Of a stretch of 32,000 nucleotides of DNA, positions 2,762-21,222 are shown piece by piece. Position 1 is the first letter of the stretch; each line of letters opens with the position of its first letter. Both the position numbers and the translations under genes were made by a program. This DNA is from Dickeya dadantii NCPPB 898 (GTDB lineage Bacteria; Pseudomonadota; Gammaproteobacteria; Enterobacterales; Enterobacteriaceae), in contig NZ_CM001976.1 in NCBI RefSeq assembly GCF_000406145.1, forward strand, positions 867,260 through 899,259, written 5' to 3'. Under the pieces are notes generated by a model. That model was given only the letters and a program-made list of their open reading frames with translations. It was not told the origin of the DNA and made no database searches.

Positions 2762-2763
2762 CC

Positions 2764-6687: not shown

Positions 6688-7956
6688 GTGTTGCTAATCA
6701 AATTCCTTCGAATAATGGCATACTTTCCCAACCATACGGCGAGTTTCCTTAAAACTTATAATAACTTTATGACGAATATTCCTGCTTTTAATGAGAAAGG
6801 GTATCTGCCAGAAGGCACCCACAGTTGTTCTGAGCAACAATTTATTGAGCGCTTCTGTACGATCAGCGAAGAACGCTCGGATCTAAAACAAGCATTTATC
6901 GATATTCTGGATTTCGCAAACACGCGCAATGCAATATGTGTTTACGTCGGCGGTTCTTATGTTACAAGGAAACAAAATCCAAACGATTTGGATGTCGTAA
7001 TCGTATTTCGGAACAAAGAGCACATCCCATCGAGATCTGAACGATGGATTATTGATGGAAAGCGTACAGATATTATGTTTTGCTCGGCTGACGATCCCGT
7101 CGTTACCGCGTCATTTATAAAACTGCTGTCTTTCGAGCGCTACGGCAGTAGCGTGGGTGTAATTCAAATCAATCTTGACCACACAGATGAACCGTGGACG
7201 ACTCATCATGAACCAGATGACAATACCTACGAAGTCATCAAAAGAACCTATTTCAACCGACATCTGGTCGACTTGAACAAGGCATCGGGGGTGCTGGTTA
7301 CTATCCACGGGATAATGACGCATGCGGAATGGAATGCGAATATTATCCCTATTGCGAGCAGTCAAGGGTGGATCGTCGCCCCTTACATTTACGGTTATAC
7401 CACTCCTGACATCCTTTTGAATAAAGGGAAACGAAAAGAAGCGGTGGACGCCTTTAGGGACTGGATTTATTCGATTAAGCAGGATTTTTGCCGGAACGGT
7501 GAAGCGATTTCAGTGATTGCACACTCCTTTGGAACCTATCTGATAGGTGCTTACCTTGATGGTTTCAATGAAGTTTCTCCGGTCCGTTTCAACACAATTA
7601 TTCTTACCGGCAGCATTCTGAATGAAGGCTATGATTGGGAAAGTTGTATCGGCTATAAAGTTGCGCGGGTCAGAAACGAAATAGCACCCAACGACCAGTG
7701 GGTAAGCTTGATGCAGAGGAATCCATCAGAATGGCTTGGCCTCGATCCACTCTTTGGCCAAGCAGGAGCAAAAGGCTTTACCTCTCAGAGTCGTATTCTT
7801 ACGCAGCACACCAATAAAATTTTCGATCACAATAATGTCATTAAAAAAGATGTCATAACATCAATGTGGATGCCGTTTCTGAACAGCAATAAGTACGCGT
7901 CAGATGAAGAATATTATAAGCGCTACATGGGGCATTCTAAAAATGGCGGCCAATAA
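6688..7956 (+). CDS. Fusion protein: N-terminal Pol-beta-superfamily nucleotidyltransferase (DUF6932/MNT-like) plus C-terminal alpha/beta-hydrolase (serine esterase/lipase-like)
   Basis: The N-terminal part reads FNEKGYLPEGTHSCSEQQFIERF ... VYVGGSYVTRKQNPNDLDVVIVF, which matches the hG[GS]-x9-13-Dh[DE]h NTase signature. The C-terminal part has an HG oxyanion-type motif (VLVTIHGIMTHAEW), a nucleophile elbow (VIAHSFGTYLIG) and later candidate Asp/His residues (APNDQW, FDHNNV). GTG 6688 is preceded by AAGGG; an alternative start is ATG 6769 (MTNIPAFNEKG). Confidence 0.7.
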   Translation: MLLIKFLRIMAYFPNHTASFLKTYNNFMTNIPAFNEKGYLPEGTHSCSEQQFIERFCTISEERSDLKQAFIDILDFANTRNAICVYVGGSYVTRKQNPNDLDVVIVFRNKEHIPSRSERWIIDGKRTDIMFCSADDPVVTASFIKLLSFERYGSSVGVIQINLDHTDEPWTTHHEPDDNTYEVIKRTYFNRHLVDLNKASGVLVTIHGIMTHAEWNANIIPIASSQGWIVAPYIYGYTTPDILLNKGKRKEAVDAFRDWIYSIKQDFCRNGEAISVIAHSFGTYLIGAYLDGFNEVSPVRFNTIILTGSILNEGYDWESCIGYKVARVRNEIAPNDQWVSLMQRNPSEWLGLDPLFGQAGAKGFTSQSRILTQHTNKIFDHNNVIKKDVITSMWMPFLNSNKYASDEEYYKRYMGHSKNGGQ

Positions 7957-8079: not shown

Positions 8080-8982
8080 ATGACTAATAATCAGTTTTAT
8101 GAACTTTATAGTCGGCTTGCTGCATTACAAACCAGTAACGCTGATTGTCATCCCATTATTGAGGAGCTGACCCGGCTGTGTCTCGAAACAATTAGGAACT
8201 CCTCCTTGCAAGAATGCCTAGCGGTCGCAGCTCTCTGCTTCCGTGAAATTGGTCAGTCAGAGCAGCTTTTCACAGTAGCCCTAGCCTGCTGGCTTACCGA
8301 GGATAAATGTATCGACCTGGCAAAAGTGCTTACGCATGAAGCGAGTGTAAGCCACTTACAGGCAAACAGCCCAGTTGCGTATGATCTTTCTTCCACAGAA
8401 GAATCACGCGCCAGACTGGCAGCGTGCCGGCTTTGTGCACTTCATGTTTCTCCGGCGATATCCCTCGGCTGGACCTTAAGTCTGGCAACCTCCTTCCCTG
8501 CAAGCGCAACTACACTCAACACGGCTCAGGCGCTCCTGCAGCATCATATGAAGGATTATCCGTCGACCACGCTACGACTTCTTTCCAGCCCGAACTCCTC
8601 GTTTTCTTCATTGTTACTGGCGCAAACCGTGCTCAAACGACTGGAACAACAACGAAGCCATCTGAACGCACTGCCGAAACTTCGCGAGCTTGTGATGCCA
8701 CCTGAAATGCGCCTGATATACGCCAGTCTGAAGCGCAGCGAGAACCGGGATATTCAAAGGCAGTCAGAAGAAAAATCGATTTTTGACCAGTTCATCACCA
8801 GGCAGCATTTCAAGTACGCCAGTAAGACAGCTATTGAGGTTCTTACCGGCGATGATGTCAGGGAAACCACCCTGGAGATGATGCCATTTCAGATCGCGAC
8901 AGAGCTACCTTCGACCTGGCTTACCGATCCGGTTTCCGGAGACCTTGCCATGAACAGACAGTGGGAAGGAGTGTTGGAATGA
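8080..8982 (+). CDS. Hypothetical protein, 300 aa, no recognisable domain (composition suggests helical); translationally coupled to the next gene
   Basis: The ORF is clean, with an ATG start. Its stop overlaps the start of the downstream gene (ATGA at 8979-8982). I recognised no family. Confidence 0.6.
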   Translation: MTNNQFYELYSRLAALQTSNADCHPIIEELTRLCLETIRNSSLQECLAVAALCFREIGQSEQLFTVALACWLTEDKCIDLAKVLTHEASVSHLQANSPVAYDLSSTEESRARLAACRLCALHVSPAISLGWTLSLATSFPASATTLNTAQALLQHHMKDYPSTTLRLLSSPNSSFSSLLLAQTVLKRLEQQRSHLNALPKLRELVMPPEMRLIYASLKRSENRDIQRQSEEKSIFDQFITRQHFKYASKTAIEVLTGDDVRETTLEMMPFQIATELPSTWLTDPVSGDLAMNRQWEGVLE

Positions 8983-10658
8983 GCATTCAACTGGTTCTTT
9001 CTCATTATCTGGCCGGTCTGCGCGAGCGCAACGAGCTCGATGCACTGCTGCCTGAATTACTTAAAGCCATGGGGCACTCCGTGCTCAGCCGCCCGCAGAT
9101 TGGCCCAGGGCAGGCAGGCGTTGATGTGTTATCGACCAGACCGGATGGGAACGGTGTCGATGAAGTGTACGCCTTCATCATTAAATTTGGCGATCTCGGA
9201 CGTGCAGACTTTTATGGCGGTCAGCAGTCCATCGATCCGTCCGTGCGAGAAGCATGCACCGACTTCCTCCGAAATCGCCTGCCGGAACACCTCAAGCCTT
9301 TGCGCAAAAAGATTATTCTAGTGTCGAATGGCGTGTTGTTACAGGAAGCTCAGGCTGGCTTTTCAGCCCTGACGGAAGACGTCGCTGAACGGCCGCTCTG
9401 TAGACTCGAATTCTGGGGTAGCGATCAGCTCACACCCTTGATAGAGCGGTTTCTGTTCGACGAAACATTGCTGTTGGCCCAAGGAAAATCCGATTTGCGT
9501 GCAGCCCTTGCGGGTCTTGAAGAGTCGGGAGCAGCAATAGGTCGTTTCGTTCGCTTTGTTGATGCCTGTTTTGAATGCCCTACCGAGGAAATGAAGCAGA
9601 GTAAAGCAACGCGCAAGAAAAAGTTTTTGAGACGCTGCGCTGCAGCCGCTATGGGCTGGGCGGTACTACTAGTCTGGGGCAAAAGCGAGGGGAATCTAAA
9701 ACCTGGCGTTGTTACTGGGGAGTATTTGCTACTGCGCATGTGGGCCGAGGCGGTAAAACTTCAGCTAGATGCTGACCGCGCGTTTATCAACCGATTTGAA
9801 ACCATGGTGGACATGCAGACGCAGGCTCTGGTGGACTACTTTGAGAAGGTGATGCCCACACTAGAGATACCGCGTGCGGTCCTCTCGTATCGTCCGGAAC
9901 GCATCTTCTATCTGGAGCTTATGTTTGAGGAACTGGGACGCTTGGCCACCCTTCTGTTACTACTCCAGCGAAAACCCGATCAGGAGGAGTTTCGGACACG
10001 GATCCTGACGGCCATCATTCACCTGGTGAACCAGCATCCGGGTGTACGGCTTCCTCTGTATGACGGACATACCATTGACCTCACCCTGATCTTCTGTGCA
10101 CTGATGGGGGAGTCGGACTGGAGCAACACCCAGATTCTTGCTGGTGAAGTTGTCGCCCGGCTCCTCTGTGCACTGAAAACAGATTGCTACCTGCCTGTCG
10201 ACACCGACTCTCTGGAAGATGCCATCGCGCTCGACAGAGGACATGCCGCCAGCCGGGATTTCTTCCAGACATCAACGCTTGTACCGGCACTGGCTACTGT
10301 GGCGTCAGTGCTCGATGACGAAGAAAATCTTGAAGCCTTGCGCAGTCACGTGCTGCCATTGATGAAAGGAGTCACGCTTGAGCGCTGGTATCCCACTTCG
10401 TTACTCGAAACGCTCAGCGGATCACTGCGGGGGGTTCAGAGTGTCGGTATATCCAGAGCGCTGTCCGGACTCAGGCCTTCAACAAGGGAAGAGGCTGAGG
10501 CGTCAATTAAAACATTTGACGGTATGGCGTCCCCCTCGGACTTCAGATGGTCAGGTCGCTGGCAGGTGCTGATCGCGCTGTCAGCACGCCTGCATCGACA
10601 TCCCTTACCCACCTGGTTTATTGCTGAGTACAGGCGACCGGAACATTTCACTGAGTAG
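8979..10658 (+). CDS. Hypothetical 559-aa protein with an N-terminal Mrr-like / PD-(D/E)xK restriction-endonuclease-like domain and a long unassigned C-terminal region
   Basis: The ATG at 8979 is preceded by GGGAAGGAG. The N-terminus reads LDALLPELLKAMGHSVLSRPQIGPGQAGVDVLS...EVYAFIIKFGD...KKIILVSNGVLLQEAQ...LEFWGSDQLTPLIERFL. This follows the Mrr_cat pattern (helix, G-x-D, x-x-K, core strand, trailing helix), although the usual E/Q-x-K reads I-I-K. Confidence 0.65.
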   Translation: MSIQLVLSHYLAGLRERNELDALLPELLKAMGHSVLSRPQIGPGQAGVDVLSTRPDGNGVDEVYAFIIKFGDLGRADFYGGQQSIDPSVREACTDFLRNRLPEHLKPLRKKIILVSNGVLLQEAQAGFSALTEDVAERPLCRLEFWGSDQLTPLIERFLFDETLLLAQGKSDLRAALAGLEESGAAIGRFVRFVDACFECPTEEMKQSKATRKKKFLRRCAAAAMGWAVLLVWGKSEGNLKPGVVTGEYLLLRMWAEAVKLQLDADRAFINRFETMVDMQTQALVDYFEKVMPTLEIPRAVLSYRPERIFYLELMFEELGRLATLLLLLQRKPDQEEFRTRILTAIIHLVNQHPGVRLPLYDGHTIDLTLIFCALMGESDWSNTQILAGEVVARLLCALKTDCYLPVDTDSLEDAIALDRGHAASRDFFQTSTLVPALATVASVLDDEENLEALRSHVLPLMKGVTLERWYPTSLLETLSGSLRGVQSVGISRALSGLRPSTREEAEASIKTFDGMASPSDFRWSGRWQVLIALSARLHRHPLPTWFIAEYRRPEHFTE

Positions 10659-11122: not shown

Positions 11123-14100
11123 TTATTTACTACACTTAGCGAATCTGTCTTCTAAAGATTGGCGCAAAGTTTTAAGTTCCCTGACTGATTCAACAACCTG
11201 AGGTGTTGGGGAAGGTTTTCTTGCCTTCAAACACATAGGTCTTAGTTTATCTGGATTTTCACCAGCATAATTTTCATGTCGTAAAAAACTCATGATAAAA
11301 CTTGAAAAGGAACGAATTGAATGCGTATTACTAATCAAACCGTCATCATGGTGAAGCCAGAAAATCAGTTGCTCATAACTTTCGGCAGAGTAGAGAATTG
11401 ATAAATCAGAGATTTGCTTATTTTTTTCATCTCTCAACTTAAAAGCTGAATCTTTATTCATCACCCTAATTCGTTTGTAATTAGCCAAAAAATTAAAAAC
11501 AATATATAAGTAAAAAATCCCAATGACATTAACTAACCCTATCAAGAAGATGATATTTAAAGTCACCTCACCCAAGTCAAAAATATGTGCAGGGATAAAC
11601 TTTTTGACCAGCCAGCACAAGCTATACCCCAGCGCCAAGCAAATTGATAGAAAAACAGCCCCAAAAAAAATTAAAATAGTTGAAGCTTTCAAAAAAACCT
11701 TGATATTTAGATGTTTGATAATCCAGATCATAACATCATGAAATTTAATCTTCTTGCCTTGATGGCGAACCAAAAAAGGAGAAAACATAATAATAACTAG
11801 CAATATCAAAAGTGAAAATAAAATAAAAGATATTACTGTTAAGTTTGTTGGTTTGTTTACTAAATTTACTGTAATTATAATCCAAGAGGCCAGCAGAATC
11901 GCGAAAGAAAACGTGAAATCTATTTCAATTTTTGAGCTTTGGTAATTATTTTTAATGTGCCTTAACGAGTGTCGTGGTAGCATATCCATTGCAACAAGCA
12001 TTGAGTTTGCTACAGTGGTAATAATAGAAAAGGGGTTAATTAATAAGAACCGTGGTAGAGATTTTTTGAAAAATTCAAGGTTGTTTCTCAAACGCTTACC
12101 TCGCGAGACAACAATATTTGCCCCCATATCTGAAGGTAACCTCGCCGCCAAAGCTTCAATAGTTAGTAATTCCTCTCTATTTTTAGCGAGTATAACTTGG
12201 TCTGAGAGCATTCTCAAAACAACCGCTCTTGCCTCGTCTGGAAGCTTAGAAGCAAATGCCGCTTGCCTGAAAGCATTTTGCCGCTCAGATTTTGTACCAT
12301 GATTGAACGTCTCTACAAGACAGGCAACTAAAGTATCCTGTGGCAAAAGCCCACCTAAACGAAGTACCTCGCATCGATCCCATGAATCGCCTTTTTCCCA
12401 ACGAGGCATTAGAAACTTAGACGCAGCCAGAGAGAGGTATTCAGGTACGTCATGAATGCGATGAGCTAGTCCTTCCTGTAGCAAACTAAGAAGAGGAATT
12501 GCCTTTTCAGAGGTCCAGTCAAAATAGATCAAATCTTCTGGAAGAGGGGGAGTCCCACAGTGAGTATATTTATTTACCGTACAACTTTCTTCCAGTATGA
12601 CACTGGCTTGCACTAAGATGCTGTTTATTGCTTCAAAACTACAGGTTTGCAAAAGCGTAACAGTGTATTCACGCCAACGGTCCTGTGTAAGAAGCTCTGT
12701 CGCTGAGAGAATATTCGGGTGGCCTGTAAGGTAGCGGACAAATAGAGCTTCCTGATAACGACGGTGAGCAAAAGCAAAACGACGGTCGCCCGGAGCTGCA
12801 TTAGGAACATCGGCCCTTCCAATTTTAGAATCAACTAGTGCAGAAATGAGATTCTCAAGAGATTTCCCAGGAAGCTCTTCATTTTTTAATTTCACCCGTA
12901 TCTGGTCGAGAGAAGGTGCCAGACTCAATGTATCATCTTCTGCAAATAGCCTGGCTAAGCGCTCGGCCCCGATGATCAGTTCTTCAGGATTTAACGTATA
13001 CTTACGAAACAAATAATCTGGTTCACGTTTTGCCAGCCTTTCAATATGCTGCAGCAATATGTCATGATCGTTACTAGGAGCATGTTGCTCATCCCTGACG
13101 TATCGGCACAGTAGTGTTAAGAATAGTGGTGTTGAACCTATACTGCTATGAGAGCCAGCAAGGTGTTGACGAACCAAATTCATATGTTCTTCTTTAAGGA
13201 AAGAATTACGTATCAGTTCATCTTGCTTATCCCCACTCAGTGGTAGAATCCTCAGTTTTTTCCAGGGGAGAGCTTCAGGGCCTTTAAATTCCCGTGATGC
13301 TAATATCCCTTTGCATTCTCCCATGCCCTCCAAGAACTGCCTGAGTGCTTGAGAGTAACTTCTTATTATGTTGTCTCCACTTACCGAATGGAGAACGGCG
13401 GGAATTTCATCAAATGAATCAAATAGGAATAGCCATAATCCTCTGTTACAGTAGTCGTCCCAGTTTTCTTTAACAAATGCTGAAGTATCAGCATCTCCTC
13501 GACGAATATTATCGAGTATGAATTCACGCACGGTATCCACGTTTACTGCATCAGCATTACTGAATTCCATCTCACGAAGGTTGATATAAAGCGGGACTGT
13601 TGCATTTTTATCATTTGATTTTTTACCTTGCTCAGCTAACTGCTTTGCAAGATGCCGTAATGCCACACTTTTCCCTGACCCAGGTTCACCGACCAGTTGC
13701 ATCGCACGCTCAGTACTGGATGTGATGGCTCGAACAAGCGAGCGTTCCTTACGTAATCCAAAAGATTTTTTTCTGCGCAACTTGTCTATGGCAGAAGCAT
13801 AATACCCTCCCTCAGATTCCACCTCAGCTTCAAGGTCAGTAAAATATTGATCATTCCAGTTTTCTGCTTTAGCCAAATAAGCAAGGTCTGCTTCAAGTAC
13901 TGCACAAAATTGCTTTCTTCTTCTAACTCTTTTTTCATTGTCTTTGCTTAACCAAACAGGAAGGCCACTGGTTTTGTATATCTCAATGAATTTTATGAGA
14001 AGCTCAATTACTTCCCCAAACGATTTTAATAAAAATATTACTATACATCCCCCTATTGTAATAATAAATAAAGCCAAAATCAACCAGTGCCATATATCTT

Positions 14101-14194
14101 GAGATGTATTATTAGACCATAATGAATTAAATATTCTTTCAATGATTTCCAATCCTTTTTCTGAAATGCTAACTGATTCATCTTCTTTTGCCAC
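11123..14194 (-). CDS. Membrane-embedded NACHT/STAND NTPase (1023 aa): N-terminal TM helix, NACHT module, helical repeat region, four C-terminal TM helices and a ~120-aa tail
   Basis: Motifs present: Walker A LVGEPGSGKSVALRHLA, VPLYINLREM, Walker B LWLFLFDSFDEIP, GILASREF...LRILPLSGDKQDELIRNSF, and winged-helix-like RRFAFAHRRYQEALFVRYL. Hydrophobic helices are WHWLILALFIITIGGCIVIFLL (aa ~35-57) and four more at aa ~755-904 (FAILLASWIIITVNLV, VISFILFSLLILLVIIMFSPFLV, ASTILIFFGAVFLSICLALGYSLCWLV, VTLNIIFLIGLVNVIGIFYLYIVFNFL). Confidence 0.85.
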   Translation of the reverse strand: MAKEDESVSISEKGLEIIERIFNSLWSNNTSQDIWHWLILALFIITIGGCIVIFLLKSFGEVIELLIKFIEIYKTSGLPVWLSKDNEKRVRRRKQFCAVLEADLAYLAKAENWNDQYFTDLEAEVESEGGYYASAIDKLRRKKSFGLRKERSLVRAITSSTERAMQLVGEPGSGKSVALRHLAKQLAEQGKKSNDKNATVPLYINLREMEFSNADAVNVDTVREFILDNIRRGDADTSAFVKENWDDYCNRGLWLFLFDSFDEIPAVLHSVSGDNIIRSYSQALRQFLEGMGECKGILASREFKGPEALPWKKLRILPLSGDKQDELIRNSFLKEEHMNLVRQHLAGSHSSIGSTPLFLTLLCRYVRDEQHAPSNDHDILLQHIERLAKREPDYLFRKYTLNPEELIIGAERLARLFAEDDTLSLAPSLDQIRVKLKNEELPGKSLENLISALVDSKIGRADVPNAAPGDRRFAFAHRRYQEALFVRYLTGHPNILSATELLTQDRWREYTVTLLQTCSFEAINSILVQASVILEESCTVNKYTHCGTPPLPEDLIYFDWTSEKAIPLLSLLQEGLAHRIHDVPEYLSLAASKFLMPRWEKGDSWDRCEVLRLGGLLPQDTLVACLVETFNHGTKSERQNAFRQAAFASKLPDEARAVVLRMLSDQVILAKNREELLTIEALAARLPSDMGANIVVSRGKRLRNNLEFFKKSLPRFLLINPFSIITTVANSMLVAMDMLPRHSLRHIKNNYQSSKIEIDFTFSFAILLASWIIITVNLVNKPTNLTVISFILFSLLILLVIIMFSPFLVRHQGKKIKFHDVMIWIIKHLNIKVFLKASTILIFFGAVFLSICLALGYSLCWLVKKFIPAHIFDLGEVTLNIIFLIGLVNVIGIFYLYIVFNFLANYKRIRVMNKDSAFKLRDEKNKQISDLSILYSAESYEQLIFWLHHDDGLISNTHSIRSFSSFIMSFLRHENYAGENPDKLRPMCLKARKPSPTPQVVESVRELKTLRQSLEDRFAKCSK

Positions 14195-14587: not shown

Positions 14588-14887
14588 TCAATCAGATGTT
14601 ATTGTTGGCCAACCTTGTACTATTTTTCCACCGTGAGCACATCCATCGCCCATTCTTACAACTGGCTTGCCTTCAATAGTAAAGAGAGATGACCCCGAAA
14701 CCAGTCCATCCTGCATGCCTACACCAGTACACAACGCTTTTCCCCCGACAACGGCAACAGGGGTTCCATTGATAGTAACAACTGACTGTCCTGCATCAAT
14801 AATTGGGCCACCTACATGCGGTACTGGGCCGGGTTCGACTTTTGGACAGACATGCATGTGACCGAGTATTGCGACGGGTTTTCCCAT
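14588..14887 (-). CDS. PAAR-domain T6SS spike-tip protein (stand-alone, 99 aa)
   Basis: The sequence shows PAAR-like repeats (VVTINGTPVAVVGGKALC, FTIEGKPVVRMGDGCAHGG) and an HMHVC metal-ligand-like motif. It is the last gene of the hcp-vgrG operon. Confidence 0.85.
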   Translation of the reverse strand: MGKPVAILGHMHVCPKVEPGPVPHVGGPIIDAGQSVVTINGTPVAVVGGKALCTGVGMQDGLVSGSSLFTIEGKPVVRMGDGCAHGGKIVQGWPTITSD

Positions 14888-14898
14888 GGATATTTCTC

Positions 14899-15663
14899 CT
14901 ATAGTAGATAAGGCCTTCTGCGCTTTTCTGCCAACGCATCCGCCTGACTAAGATTCACTCTTATGCGGCCATTAAAATCCCCGCCATTCAGCCAGGAAAA
15001 CAGGCAGGCATCAGTACGCTGAATAAACGGATTAAGTTCGATCAACATTGTGTCGTATTGTCCGTTCTGATGGGTAATTGCGATATCTGCAACAACACTA
15101 TCCATATGTAGTAACGGTATCAATTTTTGCAGAAACTGAATGATTTGTTGGCGTATTTCATCGGCATGTTCGGTTAAGAAAGGAAAATATTCCAGACAAT
15201 GATATTGGGATACACCGACGACGTTACCATCCTTTATAAAGCACCTGAATTCGCTCCATCGTGGAATATCATGCCATCCCCGCAAAAATAGCCAGGCTGG
15301 TGTTGATGATTGCAGACAATCCCAAAGATAGGATGCCACTCGATGACTGGAAACAGACAATTGCCTGATCACGTCATCCACGCTGTTGGCCCGCGGAATG
15401 GTTGCTTCATGATAACTGACACCACCAAATCTCACGAAAACCGGCGTAGTAAATTTCGACAATATATACTCGATATCATCGCGTAATTGTTCAGAAAATA
15501 GTGGCTTTTCCAGTAATCGTTTCGCATCCATGAACTCGCTAGTACAAGCACCGATCGCTATAACGTCCCGTTCATGAAGCTCAATGCCTTCGCTCTGGAA
15601 AGAAAGCGTCAAAAGCGTTTCCGGCCAGTTTTCGATAAAAGTCTGTTTGTGCTCAGTGTACAT
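14899..15663 (-). CDS. Cdc123/D123-family (R2K clade) ATP-grasp protein
   Basis: It aligns by eye to eukaryotic CDC123. [14 protein letters not shown] matches [45 protein letters not shown] matches [50 protein letters not shown] matches WLIDFNPFGEVTDSLLFTW. Confidence 0.8.
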   Translation of the reverse strand: [254 protein letters not shown]

Positions 15664-15711: not shown

Positions 15712-16236
15712 TTACAACTTATCTTCTGACGTTGGTGTGTATAGAAATTCTTTTAGCGATAGAGCTAACAATCCTAACCCATCACCAACCGATAGATTGT
15801 CGATGTAATATCGCCAGTGAAATACACTTTTATATGTTGGGGAGTTGGGTCTTACGTCGTATATAATATATGCATCACCATCATCGTCATAGTCTGAACC
15901 AATTGCGATAAGACCAGTCGGTAATAGTGATCTGTTTTCGTATATTGATTCTTTTAAAAGATTAGTCGAGCTGATTACCTGTTCTGTGGGGAATAAGATA
16001 GCCATTAATGCTTTTCTCACTCTTCCATCATACCGCACTAAAAAATGATCTATATCTTCTAGCGGACCGCAAGCTTGATCGGCAACCAGATGAATATAAT
16101 CTTTATATTCATCTGGCAAGTGAACCTGAAGTTTTTCTTCGATATCCCCGATTCTTTTGTTGATCGTTACAGATTCAATAACTAAATCAGGATCATCCGT
16201 TTCCCACTTAACCAAATCTTCTTTCTGTATTTCCAT
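15712..16236 (-). CDS. SMI1/KNR4 (SUKH-superfamily) immunity protein
   Basis: The ATG at 16236 lies 1 nt after the toxin stop (TAG 16238-16240). It carries the SUKH-type motif IEEKLQVHLPDEYKDYIHLV. It sits immediately 3' of the nuclease effector. Confidence 0.7.
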   Translation of the reverse strand: MEIQKEDLVKWETDDPDLVIESVTINKRIGDIEEKLQVHLPDEYKDYIHLVADQACGPLEDIDHFLVRYDGRVRKALMAILFPTEQVISSTNLLKESIYENRSLLPTGLIAIGSDYDDDGDAYIIYDVRPNSPTYKSVFHWRYYIDNLSVGDGLGLLALSLKEFLYTPTSEDKL

Positions 16237-16237
16237 A

Positions 16238-17203
16238 CTAAAAATCCTCGCTGCGCCACATTGAGTCACCGCCTACATGTGGTGTTCCACTATTTACACT
16301 ACCTGTTTCACTATTTTTATATGCAGTGTGTATATCTTTGTCGACTAAGCTCATTGTAACGCCATCCGGTTCATGGTGCCATGTGCCAAGCCGCTCTTGG
16401 TCTTTAGGTAGTTTTTTGCCGTATTTTTCTGAAAAGGCATTTCTTGCTGAGCTGAAATCGCTTCCATTACCTTTCATATCAATTTCTACTTGATAGGGCT
16501 TGCCCCCATCACCGATGGGTTTGCCATCTTTTAATGGTGGGAAACCTGAAAAATCGGGGTGTCCGTCTTTGAAAGGAACACCTTCTTTGCCATGGCGTGT
16601 AACCACTTCATAGAGACTTTTATTCTTCTCTGGATCAGGCTTGTACATACCCGTACCGGGTGGGCAGGGTTTACCATCAGGTCCCACCCAACTCCCTTTT
16701 TCGGAGGAGGGGAGGCGTCCTGGATCCATTGATTTATCTTTCTCAAATTTTTCTTTGGCCAGTTTTTTACATTCTTCTGTTTTACATTTCCCCAGCTCTT
16801 TATCCAGTTTTTCCTGCTTTCTTTTTGCTATTAGCTCTTTCCAGTATTTCTTGGCGTTTTCCCGTGTTGTCGCAAATACTTTTGTATTCAGGGCTGCTTT
16901 GGCTTTCGACAGCGCAGCGGTGACTTTTTCCACTTTTGCCGCGATTTTTCCAGCTTTAGCCCCATCACCCAGTATCGGGATAAACCCTAAAGCATCAAGG
17001 GCGGCTCCGCCCCAGTCACCTTTAAATAATGAACGTCCTAACGATACGACGTCCGCCGCCGTACCAAACGGCGGTGGCGCAGCCCCTGCCGCTGCCAGAC
17101 CGCTATCCACGATCAGGTCGTTATATTGTGACTCCATATCCATCACTTTTTTGCGATCGGCTTCGATCTCCGGGCTTTCGCTTCGCGATCTGATATTCGC
17201 CAT
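16238..17203 (-). CDS. T6SS polymorphic-toxin effector: Gly/Ala-rich pre-toxin N-region plus C-terminal WHH-type HNH/EndoVII nuclease
   Basis: The C-terminus reads GTWHHEPDGVTMSLVDKDIHTAYKNSETGSVNSGTPHVGGDSMW, i.e. W-H-H ... H ... H-x-GG. The N-terminal region reads DVVSLGRSLFKGDWGGAALDALGFIPILGDGAKAGK. The gene lies downstream of vgrG and DUF4123 and upstream of the SUKH gene. Confidence 0.75.
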   Translation of the reverse strand: MANIRSRSESPEIEADRKKVMDMESQYNDLIVDSGLAAAGAAPPPFGTAADVVSLGRSLFKGDWGGAALDALGFIPILGDGAKAGKIAAKVEKVTAALSKAKAALNTKVFATTRENAKKYWKELIAKRKQEKLDKELGKCKTEECKKLAKEKFEKDKSMDPGRLPSSEKGSWVGPDGKPCPPGTGMYKPDPEKNKSLYEVVTRHGKEGVPFKDGHPDFSGFPPLKDGKPIGDGGKPYQVEIDMKGNGSDFSSARNAFSEKYGKKLPKDQERLGTWHHEPDGVTMSLVDKDIHTAYKNSETGSVNSGTPHVGGDSMWRSEDF

Positions 17204-17231: not shown

Positions 17232-17618
17232 TCACTCCGGAAACCAGTAATTCGGGTGACTCTTCATAACGGCATCTGCACCTTGATCTTCGCTGACGTC
17301 GGTGAAGAGTGCCTCCAGCCGCTCATCTTCACTCCGCTCTGTATCCGTAAGGATTTGCTTAAAGCCATCAAATTCAAAGAAGTTCGATCCGATACCCCAC
17401 ATGAAATACAGGAATTTCGCCTGGTTAGTCGGCTTGTGGATATTGAGTTTTTTAGCGATTTCCCTGCCATTCAGCGTCATCGTATACAGCGTTTCCGGCG
17501 TATGCCCTTGCTTGTGTTCCGGCAGCGATGCTTCCATCACCTCGTCGACAAACCATCGGGAGAAGTCTTTATCGCTCATCAAATGCGATTCCATTTGCAG
17601 GTCGTCAAAGTGCCACAT
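17232..17618 (-). CDS. Hypothetical 128-aa protein between the DUF4123 adaptor and the effector (possible co-chaperone or accessory)
   Basis: The ATG at 17618 is preceded by AGGAG at about 10 nt. It overlaps the 3' end of the DUF4123 gene by 14 nt. I recognised no family. Confidence 0.5.
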   Translation of the reverse strand: MWHFDDLQMESHLMSDKDFSRWFVDEVMEASLPEHKQGHTPETLYTMTLNGREIAKKLNIHKPTNQAKFLYFMWGIGSNFFEFDGFKQILTDTERSEDERLEALFTDVSEDQGADAVMKSHPNYWFPE

Positions 17619-18216
17619 GCGTTGGGCTCTCCTTATGTGATGGTGTGATAGGCAAGACCAGTTGCGCCACATGCAATTTATTCGTGTCATGGGTGTAATA
17701 CATCAATCGCTCTGGCTCATCCGTGGTTTCCGCATATACCGCATAAAGCGGGGCAAAGAATGCCGCCAACTGTTCCTGCGTCAGGCGTGGAATAAACTGG
17801 TTAAACGTCTTCGGCTGATAGAAACGGAAAAAGTAGGTTTTTCCACCATTAGTCACTTTGGTGAATTTTTTGAAATGCCTGACCAGTGGTATCAGTGACA
17901 AGGAACTGCGCACGATGATTCCCCACTGCCGCATATAGCCGTCTGCCAGCCACCAGTCCAGCACATCGCTGTGCGCATCAACCTGCACTAGGTAAGGTGC
18001 GACATGGCCGAGATTATCCAGAACGGACACATCGAATAACGAGCGGTAGATCGGTGCAAAACCCTCCAGGCAGACAGCAATGTCTGGACTGGCTGCTGCA
18101 TTCAGTAACAGAAAGGTGTGTAACGTTTTTTCCTGGTCATCTTCATGGATCATTGCAGGCGTGAATACCGTTGTTTTCAGGCTATCACTCACCGCGTCAT
18201 ACGGATTTTCCAGCAT
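17605..18216 (-). CDS. DUF4123 T6SS effector adaptor/chaperone (Tap/Tec family)
   Basis: Motifs: FLLLNAAASP...APIYRSLF...GHVAPYLVQV...WGIIVRSSLSLIPLVRHFKKF...YFFRFYQPKTF. The ATG at 18216 has GGGAG 6 nt upstream and lies 15 nt after the vgrG stop. The track ORF begins at 18252. Confidence 0.8.
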   Translation of the reverse strand: MLENPYDAVSDSLKTTVFTPAMIHEDDQEKTLHTFLLLNAAASPDIAVCLEGFAPIYRSLFDVSVLDNLGHVAPYLVQVDAHSDVLDWWLADGYMRQWGIIVRSSLSLIPLVRHFKKFTKVTNGGKTYFFRFYQPKTFNQFIPRLTQEQLAAFFAPLYAVYAETTDEPERLMYYTHDTNKLHVAQLVLPITPSHKESPTHVAL

Positions 18217-18230
18217 GGTTAGCTCCCTGC

Positions 18231-20540
18231 TTATTTCTTTTTGTACGGGCATTCTTCCGAGAATGGTTTATCACTGCTCAGTGCTGCTGCCTGTTCTGCC
18301 GCGCCACCGGACATATCAATTGATGAGGCTTTCATCTTGATTGTCTTCGCCTTGATGGTGATACCGCTGTCATCAATAGTGATCGAGCCCCCTGGACCAC
18401 CGATGACGACTTTCTCTTTGGCATACAGCGTATGTTTCAATGTGCGGGAGAAAATAGAGCCTTTGGTTTCGATGTCATATTTATCGCCAACCAACAGTTT
18501 CAATACCTGACCGACGGACAGTGTCTGGGTGTGGCCCACCAGCGTATTTTTATAAAGCCCGACCTGTTCGGTACTGGCAATTCCTGTTGTATCCGAACGA
18601 AACTTTTCGACTACCGTATTAAAAATACCAGAGCCCGGCATCAGGCTGGAAAGTAGCCCGGCCAGCGATGTGCCTTTCGATACCATATCCACGCCAGCGT
18701 TGGACCTGAAGCCGCCTGCATCAGTAAATGATTTTCCTGCTGTTAATGACAGGGTTTCTGCGGCTGCACCGACTTTATTGATGTCATCCGCAAACTGTTC
18801 CACACCCGGCTCACCAACCTTGGCCGATTCTTTCTTCATAAACTTGCCGCTATTGGATATCAGGCTGAACAATCCCCCTAACAGTCCGAGCCCTTGTCCT
18901 CCTACCGTCAGATTCATATTACCGCCAACACGGTGCTGGTGATGCTTACCGATTTCTGTACTTCGGTTTTCTCCAATGCTTTCCACTGCGCTGGAATCCA
19001 CCCGTGTCGTCATGTCGTGCAATATCTTCACTGACATATCCTTCTGGGCATGAATATGAATATTCTCCTGTCCTGACTCATCCTCAAAAGAGAGCTCGTT
19101 GTATCCGCTCCCACGGTGGGAGTCTGAACGAATAACCGTTTTGGTTTTATGTTCCGGCAGGGTATACGGAGACGGGTTGGTGGCGTGAAAGGTGCGCCCG
19201 GTGACGATGGGCTGGTCCGGGTCCCCTTCCAGAAAGCTCACCACCACTTCATGACCGATGCGCGGAATGGCAATCAGGCCGTACTGACCACCGGCCCAGC
19301 CCTGACTGACCCGCACCCAGCAGGAGCTCTGGTCGTCGCTGGCACCGTAGCGGTCCCACGGGAATTGCAGTTTCACCCGGCCAAACTCGTCGCAGTAAAT
19401 CTCTTCGCCCGCCGGGCCGACCACGGTGGCAATCTGCGGGCCGTCCACCATCGGCTTGTACGGCATGGCCGCCCGCCAGGTGGTGGTGGCTTTCACCACC
19501 TCGAAACTGTTGCTGATGGTGGTCGGCTCGCCACCGCTTTCCTCTTCCAGCGCCTGCGGCTGCTGCCCGCTGTGGGTCACCGCCACCACCTGCCAGGCCA
19601 GGTTGAATGCCGGGTTCGGGTGCTCGGTGAGGGTAAAGGTGCCACCCGGCATCAGTTCGGCGGCGTTGGATTCACCCGCCCCGGTCATCGCCCCGGCACG
19701 CAGCGCGTCCAGCCGGTAGCCGGTAAACGCCTTGCCGCTCGGGTCCTGCTTGAAGCGGCCGGGGTAATCAAAGTGCTGGTAGGATTCACGCTGATGGTCC
19801 AGCTCGCTGCTCATCCTGTTGTGCAGCAGCCCGTAGGCAGGGGTCTTGAAGCTGTAATCCTTCAGCGCCACCTCAGCGGTACTCACCGCCTCGGCATAAC
19901 GGAAACGGCGCACATACGCCCCTTCGCTCAGCCCCTGCGTGGCGAGATTGAAGAACAGCTCCGGGCCTTTGGTCAGCGCACCGGCGTCATCGGCAAACAC
20001 CACCCGGTGCTTGCCGGCTTCGAATTCGTGGAAGTAGAACAGCCCTTCTTCTGCGGCCAGCCGGTTGATGAACGCCAGGTCGCTTTCGCGGTACTGCACG
20101 CAGTACTCGCGCACCGCGTGGTCGTGGCGCAGGGCAAAGGCAAAATCGCTGATACCGGCTTCCTGCAACAGTTCGGTGATGATCTCATCCGGTTTTTTGG
20201 TCTGGAAGATACGGGCGTTGGTGCGCAGACCGAGCCGCCACAGCGCCGGGCGTACCTCGGCCTGGTAGCGGGTGCGGCGAAAACCGGTGTCGCCCTGGGC
20301 AAAGCGGCTGACGATACCGCTGACCCGGCGCTGCAGTTCGCCTTCGTACCACACCAGCAGCTCGCATGGCTGGTCCAGCACCGCGCCGAAGTCGATATCC
20401 GCCTGACTGCTGGCAAGGCTCAGCGACAGCGCAAACGGCTGGTTCAGCGCCTCGCTCAGCTCAAAATCCACCACCGCGAAGGTGGTGTCCGCCAATGCGC
20501 CGATTTTCACGGTAAACTGCAATCCTGTACTGTTGGCCAC
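18231..20540 (-). CDS. vgrG: VgrG T6SS spike protein with an AT-rich variable C-terminal region
   Basis: The sequence shows the canonical N-terminus ([36 protein letters not shown]), the gp5 OB-fold ([21 protein letters not shown]) and beta-helix repeats. GTG 20540 is preceded by AAGGAGG; the track start is ATG 20567. Confidence 0.95.
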
Positions 20541-20659
20541 CCTGCTTCCTCCTTTCCCCGGCTCCATAGCTACCGCACACCCGGTCTGTGCCGTGTGTCA
20601 GTGCACTATCACAATGAATGCGCCTGCACTCAGAGATGGGCACACCATCGCTCAGCGCA

Positions 20660-20703: not shown

Positions 20704-21222
20704 TTACGCTTCGATCGGCGCGCGCCAGTCGTCAGAGCCGGAAGTCCCGGCCACGGTGTGTTCCCAGTCGATTTTGCGGTACGCCAGCGACACTTCGATC
20801 AGCTGGGTGTAATCCTGCTTGGACGGGTCCTGGCAGTGCGGCATCTGGTTGTTGATGTCGACAATGGTGGCGTCGGTCAGTTTGGTGGTGAAGAAATGCT
20901 CCTGCTTGCCTTCGACGGAGGTGCGGTACCACTTCAGGGTCACGGTCGGCAGCATTTCGCCGGAGGCCAGCGCGTTATACAGCAGCGGGACGGCCTTGTT
21001 CAGCGCGACGGTGAACTTGAACGGTTTGTGCACGCGCTGACCGGCAGGCTGGCCGGACTGCGGGTCGGTCGGGACGGTGACGATGTGTTTGAATTCCTGC
21101 ACCAGCATCTCGTCTTCGTGGCCCTGCACGTAGATGTTGCCGACGGAGTCGGAGGTGAAGGCACCGGCGGTGATGTTGCCCTGCGTTTTACCTTCGATGC
21201 TGATATAGCATGGGGTTGGCAT
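20704..21222 (-). CDS. hcp: Hcp T6SS tube protein
   Basis: The 172-aa product is Hcp1-like (MPTPCYISIEGKTQGNITAGAF...VHKPFKFTVALNKAVPLLYNALASGEMLPTVTLKWYRT...). GGAG lies 7 nt upstream of the ATG. Confidence 0.95.
   Translation of the reverse strand: MPTPCYISIEGKTQGNITAGAFTSDSVGNIYVQGHEDEMLVQEFKHIVTVPTDPQSGQPAGQRVHKPFKFTVALNKAVPLLYNALASGEMLPTVTLKWYRTSVEGKQEHFFTTKLTDATIVDINNQMPHCQDPSKQDYTQLIEVSLAYRKIDWEHTVAGTSGSDDWRAPIEA

What the first reader, a model, noticed from the sequence alone, without database searches (positions are those of the whole stretch)
14899..15663. Cdc123/D123-like ATP-grasp enzyme encoded inside a T6SS effector operon
Seen in sequence: several blocks align by eye with eukaryotic CDC123, including the diagnostic [17 protein letters not shown] and LIELNPF...D..LFSW segments. 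The gene sits between a SUKH immunity gene and PAAR, on the same strand as hcp-vgrG. Established knowledge: comparative genomics (Burroughs, Zhang and Aravind, R2K-clade ATP-grasp analysis) noted a bacterial CDC123 subgroup associated with T6SS polymorphic-toxin loci. To my knowledge its biochemical target and role are experimentally unresolved. Inference: it has no obvious cognate immunity gene downstream, as PAAR follows directly. It may therefore modify the effector, the immunity protein or the spike rather than act as a classical toxin. Alternatively it may target something absent from the producer.
Basis: partly seen in the sequence, partly recalled or inferred. Interest (0 to 1): 0.65.

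Follow-up and report, generated by a model that had tools for sequence, protein, structure and literature searches.

The report
Cdc123-like ATP-grasp gene in T6SS cassette
A bacterial relative of the eukaryotic eIF2-assembly factor CDC123 sits in a Dickeya type VI secretion toxin cassette, as claimed, but this association is already published and its role is still untested.

Summary
Confirmed. Window 15663-14899 (minus strand) encodes an intact 254-aa protein. It matches Pfam D123 (E 2.6e-23) and solved Cdc123 structures by sequence and by fold (TM 0.65-0.73).

It lies in one minus-strand operon: hcp, vgrG, DUF4123 adaptor, a 128-aa ORF, a WHH nuclease effector, SUKH immunity, D123, PAAR.

The catalytic acidic residues are present (D193, E209-x-N211). 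The strand-2 lysine is Arg78. The second signature basic residue is His85, a change limited to the Enterobacterales/Aeromonas clade.

The same gene set recurs from Dickeya and Aeromonas to Rhodobacteraceae and metagenomes, once in permuted order. No immunity gene follows D123. A natural toxin/immunity allele swap in a sister Dickeya leaves D123 untouched.

Burroughs et al. 2015 described this subgroup. A 2018 Pectobacterium/Dickeya preprint described this cassette and found the ortholog non-toxic in E. coli.

My best reading is an immunity-less ATP-dependent accessory factor for the WHH/SUKH cargo module, probably an assembly or hand-over chaperone like eukaryotic CDC123. This role is inferred, not shown.

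The novelty class is already known and interest is moderate to low.

The parts
20704..21222 (-). hcp, the T6SS tube protein and first gene of the cassette
   Evidence: Pfam T6SS_HCP E 2e-32. A promoter-like site lies upstream at 21344-21315, and a hairpin followed by a T-run lies after the gene at 20695-20674 (these are consensus matches only).
18231..20567 (-). vgrG spike protein (778 aa)
   Evidence: Pfam Phage_GPD E 8e-95, Gp5_trimer_C and Phage_base_V. GC content falls from about 0.62 (19001-20500) to about 0.49 (18001-19000) inside the gene.
17605..18216 (-). DUF4123 (Tap/Tec-type) effector adaptor. It is 203 aa from the start shared with orthologs; the longest ORF begins at 18252.
   Evidence: Pfam DUF4123 E 1.2e-21. 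Weak NCBIfam Tla1 chaperone hit. Orthologs are 203 aa.
17232..17618 (-). Conserved 128-aa all-helical protein, possibly a co-adaptor. The longest ORF begins at 17690.
   Evidence: No Pfam or NCBIfam hit. It is present in nearly all D123 cassettes. The AF2 model has only pLDDT 66. Its single suggestive PDB hit is chain B of the Tke5-Tap3 adaptor complex 9r8g (TMq 0.60, rmsd 2.0 over 91 columns, E 0.12), which is weak evidence.
16238..17203 (-). Cargo effector (321 aa): a conserved N-terminal delivery region (motif APPPFGTAADVVSLGR...IPILGDGAKAGK), a Lys-rich linker, and a C-terminal WHH/colicin-DNase-type nuclease
   Evidence: Pfam WHH E 1.3e-8 and Colicin-DNase E 6.5e-5 at residues 257-318. 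Homologs occur in all D123 cassettes.
15712..16236 (-). SUKH (SMI1_KNR4) immunity protein for the WHH nuclease. It is 174 aa from the ATG that follows the effector stop.
   Evidence: Pfam SMI1_KNR4 E 1.4e-10. It is the fastest-diverging gene of the cassette (dN 0.20-0.23). It is swapped together with the toxin domain in D. undicola.
14899..15663 (-). D123/Cdc123-family ATP-grasp protein (254 aa), the finding itself
   Evidence: The residue equivalences to human CDC123 are R78 to K104, S83 to A109, H85 to R111, D193 to D233, and E209-L-N211 to D246-x-N248.
14588..14887 (-). Small PAAR spike tip protein (99 aa), probably translationally coupled to D123
   Evidence: Pfam PAAR_motif E 3.4e-21. An 11-nt spacer separates it from D123, and its Shine-Dalgarno overlaps the D123 stop codon. 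The D123-to-PAAR spacer is 3-11 nt in most related loci.

Best explanation
The gene encodes a genuine Cdc123/D123-family ATP-grasp protein that very probably still binds ATP.

It is not a polymorphic toxin. It is a constant, immunity-less accessory component of one specific T6SS cargo module: VgrG, DUF4123 adaptor, a 128-aa helical protein, a WHH nuclease effector, SUKH immunity, D123 and a small PAAR.

The most likely mode of action, inferred but not shown, is inside the producer cell. There it would use ATP binding or hydrolysis as an assembly or hand-over chaperone, as eukaryotic CDC123 does when it holds eIF2-gamma and promotes eIF2 assembly. One possibility is taking the WHH nuclease from its tightly bound SUKH immunity protein. 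Another is handing it to the adaptor/VgrG/PAAR spike.

- **Shown:** family membership, fold, retained acidic catalytic residues, operon position, conserved gene set, absence of a cognate immunity gene, and independence from the toxin/immunity allele.
- **Inferred:** ATP use, site of action in the producer, and the identity of the client.
For: **Identity.** Pfam D123 E 2.6e-23. PDB Cdc123 hits by sequence and by fold (TMq 0.65-0.73).

**Active site.** E138, R140, Q153 and D193 are invariant across 66 diverse relatives, and E209/N211 are more than 90% conserved. The profile alignment equates them with human D233 and D246xN248, and equates R78 with K104.

**The gene is maintained.** The ORF is intact, with dN 0.16-0.19 against saturated dS and dN/dS 0.07 where measurable.

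**Conserved module.**
- The order DUF4123, orf128, WHH effector, SUKH, D123 (then PAAR) recurs in Dickeya, Brenneria, Pectobacterium, Aeromonas, Rhodobacteraceae (about 35% identity) and metagenomes.
- The unit is duplicated in tandem in L019.
- The same gene set appears in a different order in L052: WHH, SUKH, DUF4123, D123.
- SUKH and D123 overlap by 4 bp in many alpha-type loci. D123 and PAAR are 3-11 nt apart.

**Not a toxin/immunity element.**
- No gene fits between D123 and PAAR.
- The window and D. undicola are about 99% identical except for a block running from effector codon ~200 to ~30 nt before the SUKH stop. D123 stays about 98% identical.
- The Pectobacterium brasiliense ortholog PCBA_RS05775 was not toxic when expressed in E. 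coli. It is co-induced in planta with the whole island (bioRxiv 10.1101/391854).

**Chaperone analogy.** Eukaryotic CDC123 is an ATP-dependent eIF2 assembly chaperone, with the first evidence that ATP hydrolysis regulates assembly (PMC12860950, PMC8844851, PMC10898606). D123 diverges at the pace of the cytoplasmic handling proteins (DUF4123 dN 0.14-0.19, SUKH 0.20-0.23). The spike and secreted parts are slower (PAAR, effector and vgrG 0.05-0.11).
Against: - No biochemical or genetic test of any bacterial D123 exists beyond one ectopic toxicity assay. In that assay the WHH nuclease itself was also non-toxic, so the assay may have been insensitive.
- The client is unknown, and I could not run complex prediction.
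- In L009 (second copy) and L052, D123 directly follows a DUF4123 adaptor gene. That position is typical of a cargo effector.
- The second R2K signature residue is His85 in this clade, where 148 of 186 relatives have Lys. ATP handling may therefore differ.
- If D123 contacted the toxin or immunity protein, some co-variation with their alleles might be expected. None is seen.
- Related effectors with the same N-terminal motif but non-WHH toxins lack D123. The factor is therefore dispensable for that delivery route in general.
Confidence: 0.45

Rival explanations
1. D123 is an ATP-dependent ligase, as first proposed for the R2K clade. It would covalently modify a cassette protein (the WHH effector, SUKH, the 128-aa protein, PAAR or VgrG) with an amino acid or peptide tag. 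This would regulate toxin activity, immunity or loading.
For: The ATP-grasp fold and all acidic catalytic residues are retained. The next-best structural neighbours are true ligases: Ddl, RimK and LysX. Burroughs et al. made this proposal. An invariant clade-specific loop, W224...GGDF(D/N)G...R235, is modelled with low confidence and could be a substrate-binding lid. Effector C-termini end in a conserved acidic-aromatic pair such as ..SEDF or ..PEF, and PAAR always ends in Asp. These are only suggestive carboxylate sites.
Against: The papers read here present eukaryotic CDC123 as an ATPase assembly chaperone and give no ligase substrate (abstracts read). I am not aware of a demonstrated ligase substrate for any Cdc123-family member. 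The C-terminal motifs may simply be structural ends of the WHH and PAAR domains. The conserved YW(F/Y)P(E/D) of the 128-aa protein is not C-terminal in alpha-type homologs.
Confidence: 0.2
2. D123 is itself a secreted cargo aimed at eukaryotic cells (plant, protist or animal). It would need no immunity because its target is absent from bacteria. As a CDC123 mimic it could bind eIF2-gamma or interfere with eIF2 assembly.
For: There is no immunity gene and the ortholog is non-toxic in E. coli. The preprint authors proposed a plant-targeted role. The named carriers are plant pathogens (Dickeya, Pectobacterium, Brenneria, Lonsdalea) and Aeromonas. Plant CDC123 drives the translational burst of effector-triggered immunity (PMC10898606). 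Burroughs et al. proposed a host-directed role for Legionella CDC123 homologs. D123 directly follows a DUF4123 adaptor in two loci.
Against: The gene is tied to an antibacterial WHH/SUKH pair in nearly every locus, including free-living marine Rhodobacteraceae and diverse metagenomes. It lacks the eukaryotic inserts and C-terminal domain (254 aa versus 336 aa). Translational coupling to SUKH and PAAR fits a cytoplasmic partner better. The preprint notes, citing Bernal et al. 2018, that no plant-targeting T6SS effector had been identified at that time.
Confidence: 0.2
3. D123 is a secondary antibacterial toxin delivered alongside the nuclease, and the producer is protected by some means other than an adjacent immunity gene.
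For: Burroughs et al. listed this as one possibility. The gene is located inside an effector cassette.
Against: There is no adjacent immunity gene in about 30 loci. The ortholog was non-toxic in E. coli. The gene shows no polymorphism or domain swapping and stays constant across a toxin/immunity swap. It is under purifying selection, with no sign of arms-race diversification.
Confidence: 0.07

Closest known systems
T6SS-associated bacterial CDC123 (R2K.1) subgroup of Burroughs, Zhang and Aravind 2015 (PMC4431377)
   Same: It is a stand-alone ATP-grasp protein of about 250 aa. It is embedded in polymorphic-toxin loci with SUKH immunity, VgrG, Hcp and PAAR. This is exactly the situation in the window.
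   Different: Nothing essential differs. This work adds four points. The partner toxin is consistently a WHH/colicin-DNase cargo effector with a DUF4123 adaptor and a 128-aa helical protein. The strand-2 Lys is Arg in 88% of the bacterial family. The second basic residue is His in the Enterobacterales/Aeromonas clade. D123 lies outside the recombining toxin/immunity block.
PCBA_RS05775 (D123) in the HSI-2 island of Pectobacterium brasiliense 1692 (Bellieny-Rabelo et al., bioRxiv 10.1101/391854)
   Same: It is an orthologous cassette: hcp, vgrG, hypothetical genes, WHH, SMI1_KNR4, D123, PAAR. The same paper reports the cassette in Dickeya strains. Orthologs are 72-78% identical to the window protein.
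   Different: The species differs. Experimental data exist only there: co-induction in planta and no toxicity in E. coli.
Eukaryotic CDC123 (human 8PHD; S. pombe 4ZGN/4ZGQ)
   Same: The fold matches over the full length (TMq 0.65-0.73). The catalytic Asp and the (D/E)xN motif are conserved, as are the EFRCF and NPF...LFSW blocks. It may also share the working principle of an ATP-dependent assembly factor.
   Different: Identity is about 20%. The window protein is 254 aa against 336 aa and lacks the disordered inserts and C-terminal domain. It has Arg for K104 and His for R111. Bacteria have no eIF2, so the client must differ. It also carries an extra invariant GGDF(D/N)G...R motif.
Known T6SS effector adaptors and chaperones (DUF4123/Tap-Tec, Eag/DUF1795, DUF2169)
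   Same: They are also non-secreted, effector-specific accessory proteins encoded inside vgrG cargo cassettes, and they have no immunity partner.
   Different: There is no sequence or fold relationship. To my knowledge none of them uses ATP. D123 occurs in addition to a DUF4123 adaptor, not in place of one.
T3SS ATPase-driven release of effectors from their chaperones (InvC; analogy only, from general knowledge)
   Same: An energy-dependent step strips a tightly bound partner from a secreted protein before export. This is the kind of step proposed here for the WHH-SUKH complex.
   Different: It is an unrelated protein family (a hexameric F1-like ATPase). It is part of the core apparatus rather than a cargo cassette. 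The analogy is untested.

Membership tests
Pfam D123 / Cdc123 family (PF07065; R2K.1) | Profile match above the curated gathering score | tested here: met
   83.1 bits against a cutoff of 24, E 2.6e-23, residues 119-225. A family profile against PDB Cdc123 gives E 3.6e-27 and covers the region from the strand-2 motif to the C-terminal block.
Pfam D123 / Cdc123 family (PF07065; R2K.1) | Full-length fold similarity to solved Cdc123 structures, closer than to other ATP-grasp enzymes | tested here: met
   The AF2 model has pLDDT 87. The top 10 PDB hits are all Cdc123 (E 1e-10 to 1e-12, TMq 0.65-0.73, 250-286 aligned columns). Ddl, RimK and LysX come next at E 1e-5.
ATP-grasp superfamily catalytic template (as listed by Burroughs et al.) | An acidic residue in strand 4 of the kinase-like domain, and an ExN-type motif at the end of the last strand | tested here: met
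   D193 aligns with human D233, and E209-L-N211 aligns with D246-x-N248. Across 186 relatives, D193 is present in 182, E/D209 in 181 and N211 in 176.
ATP-grasp superfamily catalytic template | A positively charged residue (typically Lys) at the end of RAGNYA strand 2 (human K104) | tested here: met
   R78, in strand 75-79 of the model, aligns with K104. The position is Arg in 164 and Lys in 14 of 186 bacterial relatives. The charge is kept but the residue is not Lys.
R2K clade signature (two basic residues in the RAGNYA domain) | A second conserved Lys/Arg in the loop just after strand 2 (human R111; S. pombe Lys) | tested here: not met
   The window has His85. The position is Lys in 148, Arg in 9 and His in 17 of 186 sequences. 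All His cases belong to the window's Enterobacterales/Aeromonas clade, at 63% identity or more. This is a derived substitution within a clade that belongs to the family by descent. Its effect on ATP use is unknown.
Pfam D123 / Cdc123 family | ATP binding or hydrolysis, and binding of a client protein | not testable with these tools
   This needs purified protein. Only the eukaryotic homologs have such data.
T6SS-associated bacterial CDC123 subgroup (Burroughs et al. 2015) | Embedded in a polymorphic-toxin locus with SUKH immunity, VgrG, Hcp and PAAR | tested here: met
   All four are found on the same strand within 6.6 kb. The same holds in related loci.
Classical T6SS antibacterial effector | A cognate immunity gene immediately downstream | tested here: not met
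   An 11-nt spacer leads straight to PAAR. No intervening gene is present in about 30 related loci.
Classical T6SS antibacterial effector | Toxicity on expression in a susceptible bacterium | not tested
   Not tested here. The literature reports the Pectobacterium ortholog as non-toxic in E. coli DH5-alpha. The WHH nuclease was also non-toxic in the same assay.
Polymorphic toxin/immunity module | Co-variation or exchange together with the toxin domain and immunity gene | tested here: not met
   In the window versus D. undicola, the divergent block ends about 30 nt before the SUKH stop. D123 remains about 98% identical.
Known T6SS adaptor families (DUF4123, DUF1795/Eag, DUF2169) | Homology to one of these families | tested here: not met
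   Only D123 and R2K Pfam hits were found. There is no PADLOC or NCBIfam hit.

The most novel reading that the evidence does not exclude
D123 is the first energy-using effector-handling factor of a T6SS. It would be an ATP-driven chaperone, or a ligase, that separates the WHH nuclease from its SUKH immunity protein or loads it onto the VgrG/PAAR spike. That would make it the bacterial prototype of the assembly-chaperone activity that eukaryotes later recruited as CDC123 for eIF2.
Probability: 0.25. Interest if true: 0.75.

Novelty: already known. Interest (0 to 1): 0.35.

Why it matters
How nuclease toxins bound tightly to immunity proteins are made ready for T6SS export is not well understood. 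To my knowledge, no ATP-using accessory factor is known for T6SS cargo loading.

A bacterial D123 with a defined client would address that gap. It would also show what the ancestor of eukaryotic CDC123 did before it was recruited to eIF2 assembly. CDC123 itself matters for the integrated stress response and for plant immunity.

The presence of the gene here is not new. It was described in 2015 and again, for this very cassette type, in 2018. The value of this window is as a clean, intact example for experiments.

Tried and rejected
1. **C-terminal carboxylate substrate (RimK/LysX/TTL logic).** Effector ends (..SEDF..PEF) and PAAR ends (..TSD..RAD) are conserved. The 128-aa protein's YW(F/Y)P(E/D) motif is not terminal in alpha-type homologs. 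Nothing distinguishes these ends from ordinary domain termini. I kept this only as a weak pointer for the ligase rival.

2. **Does D123 track the effector's N-terminal delivery region or the toxin domain?**
   - The search with effector residues 1-160 returned only 5 proteins.
   - The Dickeya ananatis 'non-WHH' effector turned out to be a frameshifted WHH.
   - Two metagenomic cassette types with the same N-terminal motif but non-WHH toxins and non-SUKH immunity lack D123. They carry a 300-aa PAAR upstream instead.
   - This suggests linkage to WHH/SUKH, but the sample is small.

3. **Could the N-terminal extension of those long PAARs replace D123?** hhalign found no similarity (probability 0.1%).

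4. **Wider family context.** Three further representatives sat on contigs too short to be informative. One 456-aa relative lies in a phage-like context with an AcrVA2-like gene.

5. **Broad-alignment locus scan.** This failed because no stretch was conserved enough, so I used the narrower alignment.

6. **Structure prediction of the 128-aa protein with locus-derived homologs.** The shallow-alignment model has only pLDDT 66.

7. **Complex prediction.** Predicting D123 with PAAR, SUKH or the effector was not possible with the tools.

8. **Promoter and terminator scan.** It found no more sites than shuffled controls.

9. **dN/dS.** dS is saturated, so only dN ranks and a few ratios are usable.
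Full report
**1. Observation**

- It matches Pfam D123 (PF07065) at E 2.6e-23, 83 bits against a gathering score of 24. Weaker hits go to the sister families R2K_2 and R2K_3.
- phmmer finds human Cdc123 (8phd, E 3e-13) and S. pombe Cdc123 (4zgn/4zgp, E 4e-9).
- An AlphaFold2 model built on 19 homologs has mean pLDDT 87.
- Its ten best PDB matches are all Cdc123 structures (E 1e-10 to 1e-12, TMq 0.65-0.73, 250-286 aligned columns).
- D-Ala-D-Ala ligases, RimK and LysX follow. Giant-virus Cdc123 proteins lead the viral library.

**2. Anatomy of the locus**

All of these genes are on the minus strand:

| Gene | Coordinates | Note |
|---|---|---|
| hcp | 21222-20704 | |
| vgrG | 20567-18231 | |
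| DUF4123 adaptor | 18216-17605 | |
| conserved helical ORF | 17618-17232 | 128 aa |
| effector | 17203-16238 | 321 aa, C-terminal WHH/colicin-DNase nuclease |
| SUKH/SMI1_KNR4 immunity | 16236-15712 | |
| D123 | 15663-14899 | the finding |
| PAAR | 14887-14588 | 99 aa |

- The spacer from SUKH to D123 is 48 nt.
- The spacer from D123 to PAAR is 11 nt, and the PAAR ribosome-binding site (TAGGAG) overlaps the D123 stop codon.
- The window is from Dickeya. The protein is 98% identical to a Dickeya oryzae protein, and the locus matches D. undicola 2B12.

**3. Active-site check**

Burroughs et al. list the ATP-grasp template, with human CDC123 K104, D233 and D246xN248 as its equivalents. They add a second basic residue in the loop after strand 2, which gives the R2K clade its name.

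A 66-sequence profile aligned to human and S. pombe Cdc123 gives these equivalences:

| Window | Human CDC123 | Note |
|---|---|---|
| R78 | K104 | strand-2 basic residue |
| S83 | A109 | ATP-pocket residue per the section heading of PMC12860950 |
| H85 | R111 | Lys in S. pombe |
| D193 | D233 | |
| E209-L-N211 | D246-x-N248 | |

Counts in 186 relatives:
- Position 78 is Arg in 164 and Lys in 14.
- Position 85 is Lys in 148, Arg in 9 and His in 17.
- E138, R140, Q153, D193, E209 and N211 are essentially invariant.

All 17 His85 sequences belong to the window's Enterobacterales/Aeromonas clade. The acidic catalytic core is intact. One signature basic residue is conservatively changed across the whole bacterial family. 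The other is changed to His only in this clade.

A bacterial-specific motif, W224...GGDF(D/N)G...R235, is nearly invariant. It is modelled with low confidence (pLDDT 56-67), as expected for a mobile lid or partner-binding loop.

**4. Conservation of the gene set**

Genome and metagenome scans, plus contig look-ups, show the same order: (vgrG), DUF4123, ~130-aa ORF, WHH effector, SUKH, D123, then usually PAAR. It occurs in:
- Dickeya, Brenneria and Pectobacterium, plus an Enterobacteriaceae MAG;
- Aeromonas bestiarum;
- Rhodobacteraceae (Sulfitobacter, Actibacterium, Paracoccus), at about 35% identity;
- many metagenomic contigs.

By my count, roughly 27 of 30 D123 genes with enough upstream sequence have the WHH-type effector and an immunity gene within 3 kb.

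Informative variants:
- L019 carries two tandem copies of the unit [small ORF, WHH, immunity, D123].
- L046 has PAAR moved upstream, while D123 still follows SUKH.
- L052, a high-GC genome, has the order WHH, SUKH, DUF4123, D123.
- L009 has a second D123 directly after DUF4123 and before PAAR.

In alpha-type loci SUKH and D123 often overlap by 4 bp. D123 and PAAR are 3-11 nt apart in most loci. A gene set that survives reordering argues for a functional link rather than inherited synteny alone.

The converse does not hold. Two metagenomic cassette types have an effector with the same N-terminal motif (APPPFGTAADVVSLGR...IP..GD.AK). Their toxin is not WHH and their immunity is not SUKH. They lack D123 and carry a 300-aa PAAR upstream. 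D123 is therefore tied to the WHH/SUKH cargo module rather than to T6SS cargo delivery in general.

**5. D123 is not part of the polymorphic toxin/immunity pair**

- The window and the D. undicola locus are about 99% identical across the cassette, apart from one block.
- That block runs from about codon 200 of the effector to about 30 nt before the SUKH stop. There, identity falls to roughly 65-70%.
- The toxin domain and its immunity gene have therefore been exchanged as a unit. D123, the spacer and PAAR stay at 98-99%.
- No locus has a gene between D123 and PAAR that could encode a D123 immunity protein.

Amino-acid divergence against three orthologous cassettes (dN):

| Gene | dN |
|---|---|
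| PAAR | 0.05-0.07 |
| orf128 | 0.06-0.08 |
| effector | 0.05-0.10 |
| vgrG | 0.07-0.11 |
| DUF4123 | 0.14-0.19 |
| D123 | 0.16-0.19 |
| SUKH | 0.20-0.23 |

dS is saturated, and dN/dS is at most 0.12 where measurable. D123 is under purifying selection. It diverges at the pace of the cytoplasmic handling proteins rather than the spike components.

**6. What is already known**

- **Burroughs, Zhang and Aravind 2015 (PMC4431377).**
  - They defined the R2K clade.
  - They proposed a secondary toxin, or an auxiliary protein that regulates toxin, immunity protein or apparatus.
- **Bellieny-Rabelo et al. (bioRxiv 10.1101/391854).**
  - They described this cassette (HSI-2) in P. brasiliense 1692 and in Dickeya strains.
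  - They showed co-induction of the island in potato tubers.
  - They noted that D123 lacks an immunity gene.
  - They expressed D123 (PCBA_RS05775) in E. coli and saw no toxicity. The WHH nuclease alone was also non-toxic.
  - They suggested a plant-targeted effector.
- **Searches.** I found no later experimental work on bacterial D123.
- **Eukaryotic CDC123.** It is an ATP-dependent assembly chaperone for eIF2, with recent evidence that ATP hydrolysis regulates assembly. It also has a role in plant effector-triggered immunity (PMC8844851, PMC12860950, PMC10898606).

**7. Most likely mechanism**

The evidence points to a constant, immunity-less, probably non-toxic, ATP-binding accessory protein dedicated to the WHH/SUKH cargo module.

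- **My preferred reading (inference).** By analogy with CDC123, D123 is an ATP-dependent assembly or hand-over factor acting in the producer. It might free the nuclease from SUKH, or pass it to the DUF4123 adaptor and the VgrG/PAAR spike.
- **Ligase rival.** It rests on the intact catalytic residues and cannot be excluded.
- **Eukaryote-targeted mimic rival.** This fits the lack of immunity and the plant-pathogen carriers. It fits the invariable linkage to an antibacterial toxin, and the marine and metagenomic distribution, less well.
- **Secondary antibacterial toxin rival.** This is the least likely.

None of these can be settled without experiments.

**8. Verdict**

The feature is an already described member of an already described subgroup, and its biochemical role is unresolved.

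New details from this work:
- consistent pairing with WHH cargo effectors, the DUF4123 adaptor and the 128-aa protein;
- persistence of the gene set under reordering and duplication;
- the recombination boundary that excludes D123;
- tight coupling of D123 to SUKH and PAAR;
- the Arg78 and His85 signature changes.

Interest is moderate to low as a discovery. The gene is a reasonable experimental lead.

Noticed in passing
window 11123-14194 (-): A 1023-aa NACHT/STAND NTPase (Pfam NACHT E 1.2e-9) has a long hydrophobic, multi-pass C-terminal region, read by eye from the translation. It sits in a low-GC stretch (0.34-0.44) directly downstream of PAAR. It is absent at this position in D. undicola, D. 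ananatis and the other related loci. It has only marginal PADLOC hits and could be a defence-type gene.
   Followed up: partly
window 8080-10658 (+): Two adjacent ORFs match the PADLOC models OloA (E 6e-16, C-terminal part only) and OloB (E 1e-83). They look like a candidate Olokun-type anti-phage system. Neither ORF has a Pfam hit.
   Followed up: partly
window 6688-7956 (+): A 422-aa protein carries DUF6932 (E 2e-20). It also hits the PADLOC candidate defence model PDC-M63A (E 4.5e-9).
   Followed up: no
window 1-5604 (+): Conjugative T4SS genes are present (TrbL/VirB6, VirB8, VirB9/CagX, VirB10/TrbI) at GC 0.62-0.67. The hcp-vgrG cassette therefore abuts an integrative or conjugative element carrying variable cargo. 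In D. ananatis, a TrbI gene, a ParE toxin and a DDE transposase lie downstream of the same cassette.
   Followed up: partly
window ~15740-16610 (-) versus L001 ~9050-9920: A natural allele swap is visible. The toxin domain of the WHH effector and the SUKH gene are only about 65-70% identical to those of D. undicola, while the flanks are about 99% identical. Both recombination junctions lie inside coding sequence, at about effector codon 200 and about 30 nt before the SUKH stop.
   Followed up: yes
window 18000-20500 (-): GC content drops from about 0.62-0.64 in the 5' two-thirds of vgrG to about 0.49 in its 3' end, then to 0.40-0.45 across the cargo genes. This suggests a mosaic junction inside vgrG, with the cargo module of separate origin.
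   Followed up: no
window 17232-17618 (-): The conserved 128-aa protein has no family assignment and is predicted to be all-helical (pLDDT 66). Its only suggestive structural match is chain B of the P. putida Tke5-Tap3 adaptor complex 9r8g (TMq 0.60, rmsd 2.0, E 0.12). It may be a split-off adaptor domain that works with the short DUF4123 protein.
   Followed up: partly
L019 1-9359; L009 4884-12882: Some loci carry two D123 genes. L019 has a tandem duplication of the whole [small ORF, WHH, immunity, D123] unit, plus extra SUKH genes upstream. L009 has one D123 after the immunity gene and a second one between DUF4123 and PAAR on the opposite strand.
   Followed up: partly
L023 813-2183: A 456-aa D123-family protein with a C-terminal extension lies among small genes that include an AcrVA2-like protein and a zf_Tbcl protein. 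This is a phage-like context. The bacterial D123 family (237 clusters at E<1e-30, 3829 clusters at E<1e-3) is much wider than its T6SS-linked branch.
   Followed up: no
L024 3538-4449 (Dickeya ananatis): The WHH effector is annotated as 276 aa without a WHH domain. The downstream DNA still encodes the rest of the nuclease out of frame, after homopolymer runs. This is either a pseudogene or a sequencing error.
   Followed up: yes
D123 C-termini in L009-L012, L036-L039 and elsewhere: Alpha-type D123 proteins carry 20-40-aa tails. The tails end in an acidic-aromatic motif (DDPWRLPS, DDVWRI, DDYWTSGR). The Enterobacterales/Aeromonas clade ends in KRRRPYLL instead. These may be docking motifs of unknown partner.
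   Followed up: no
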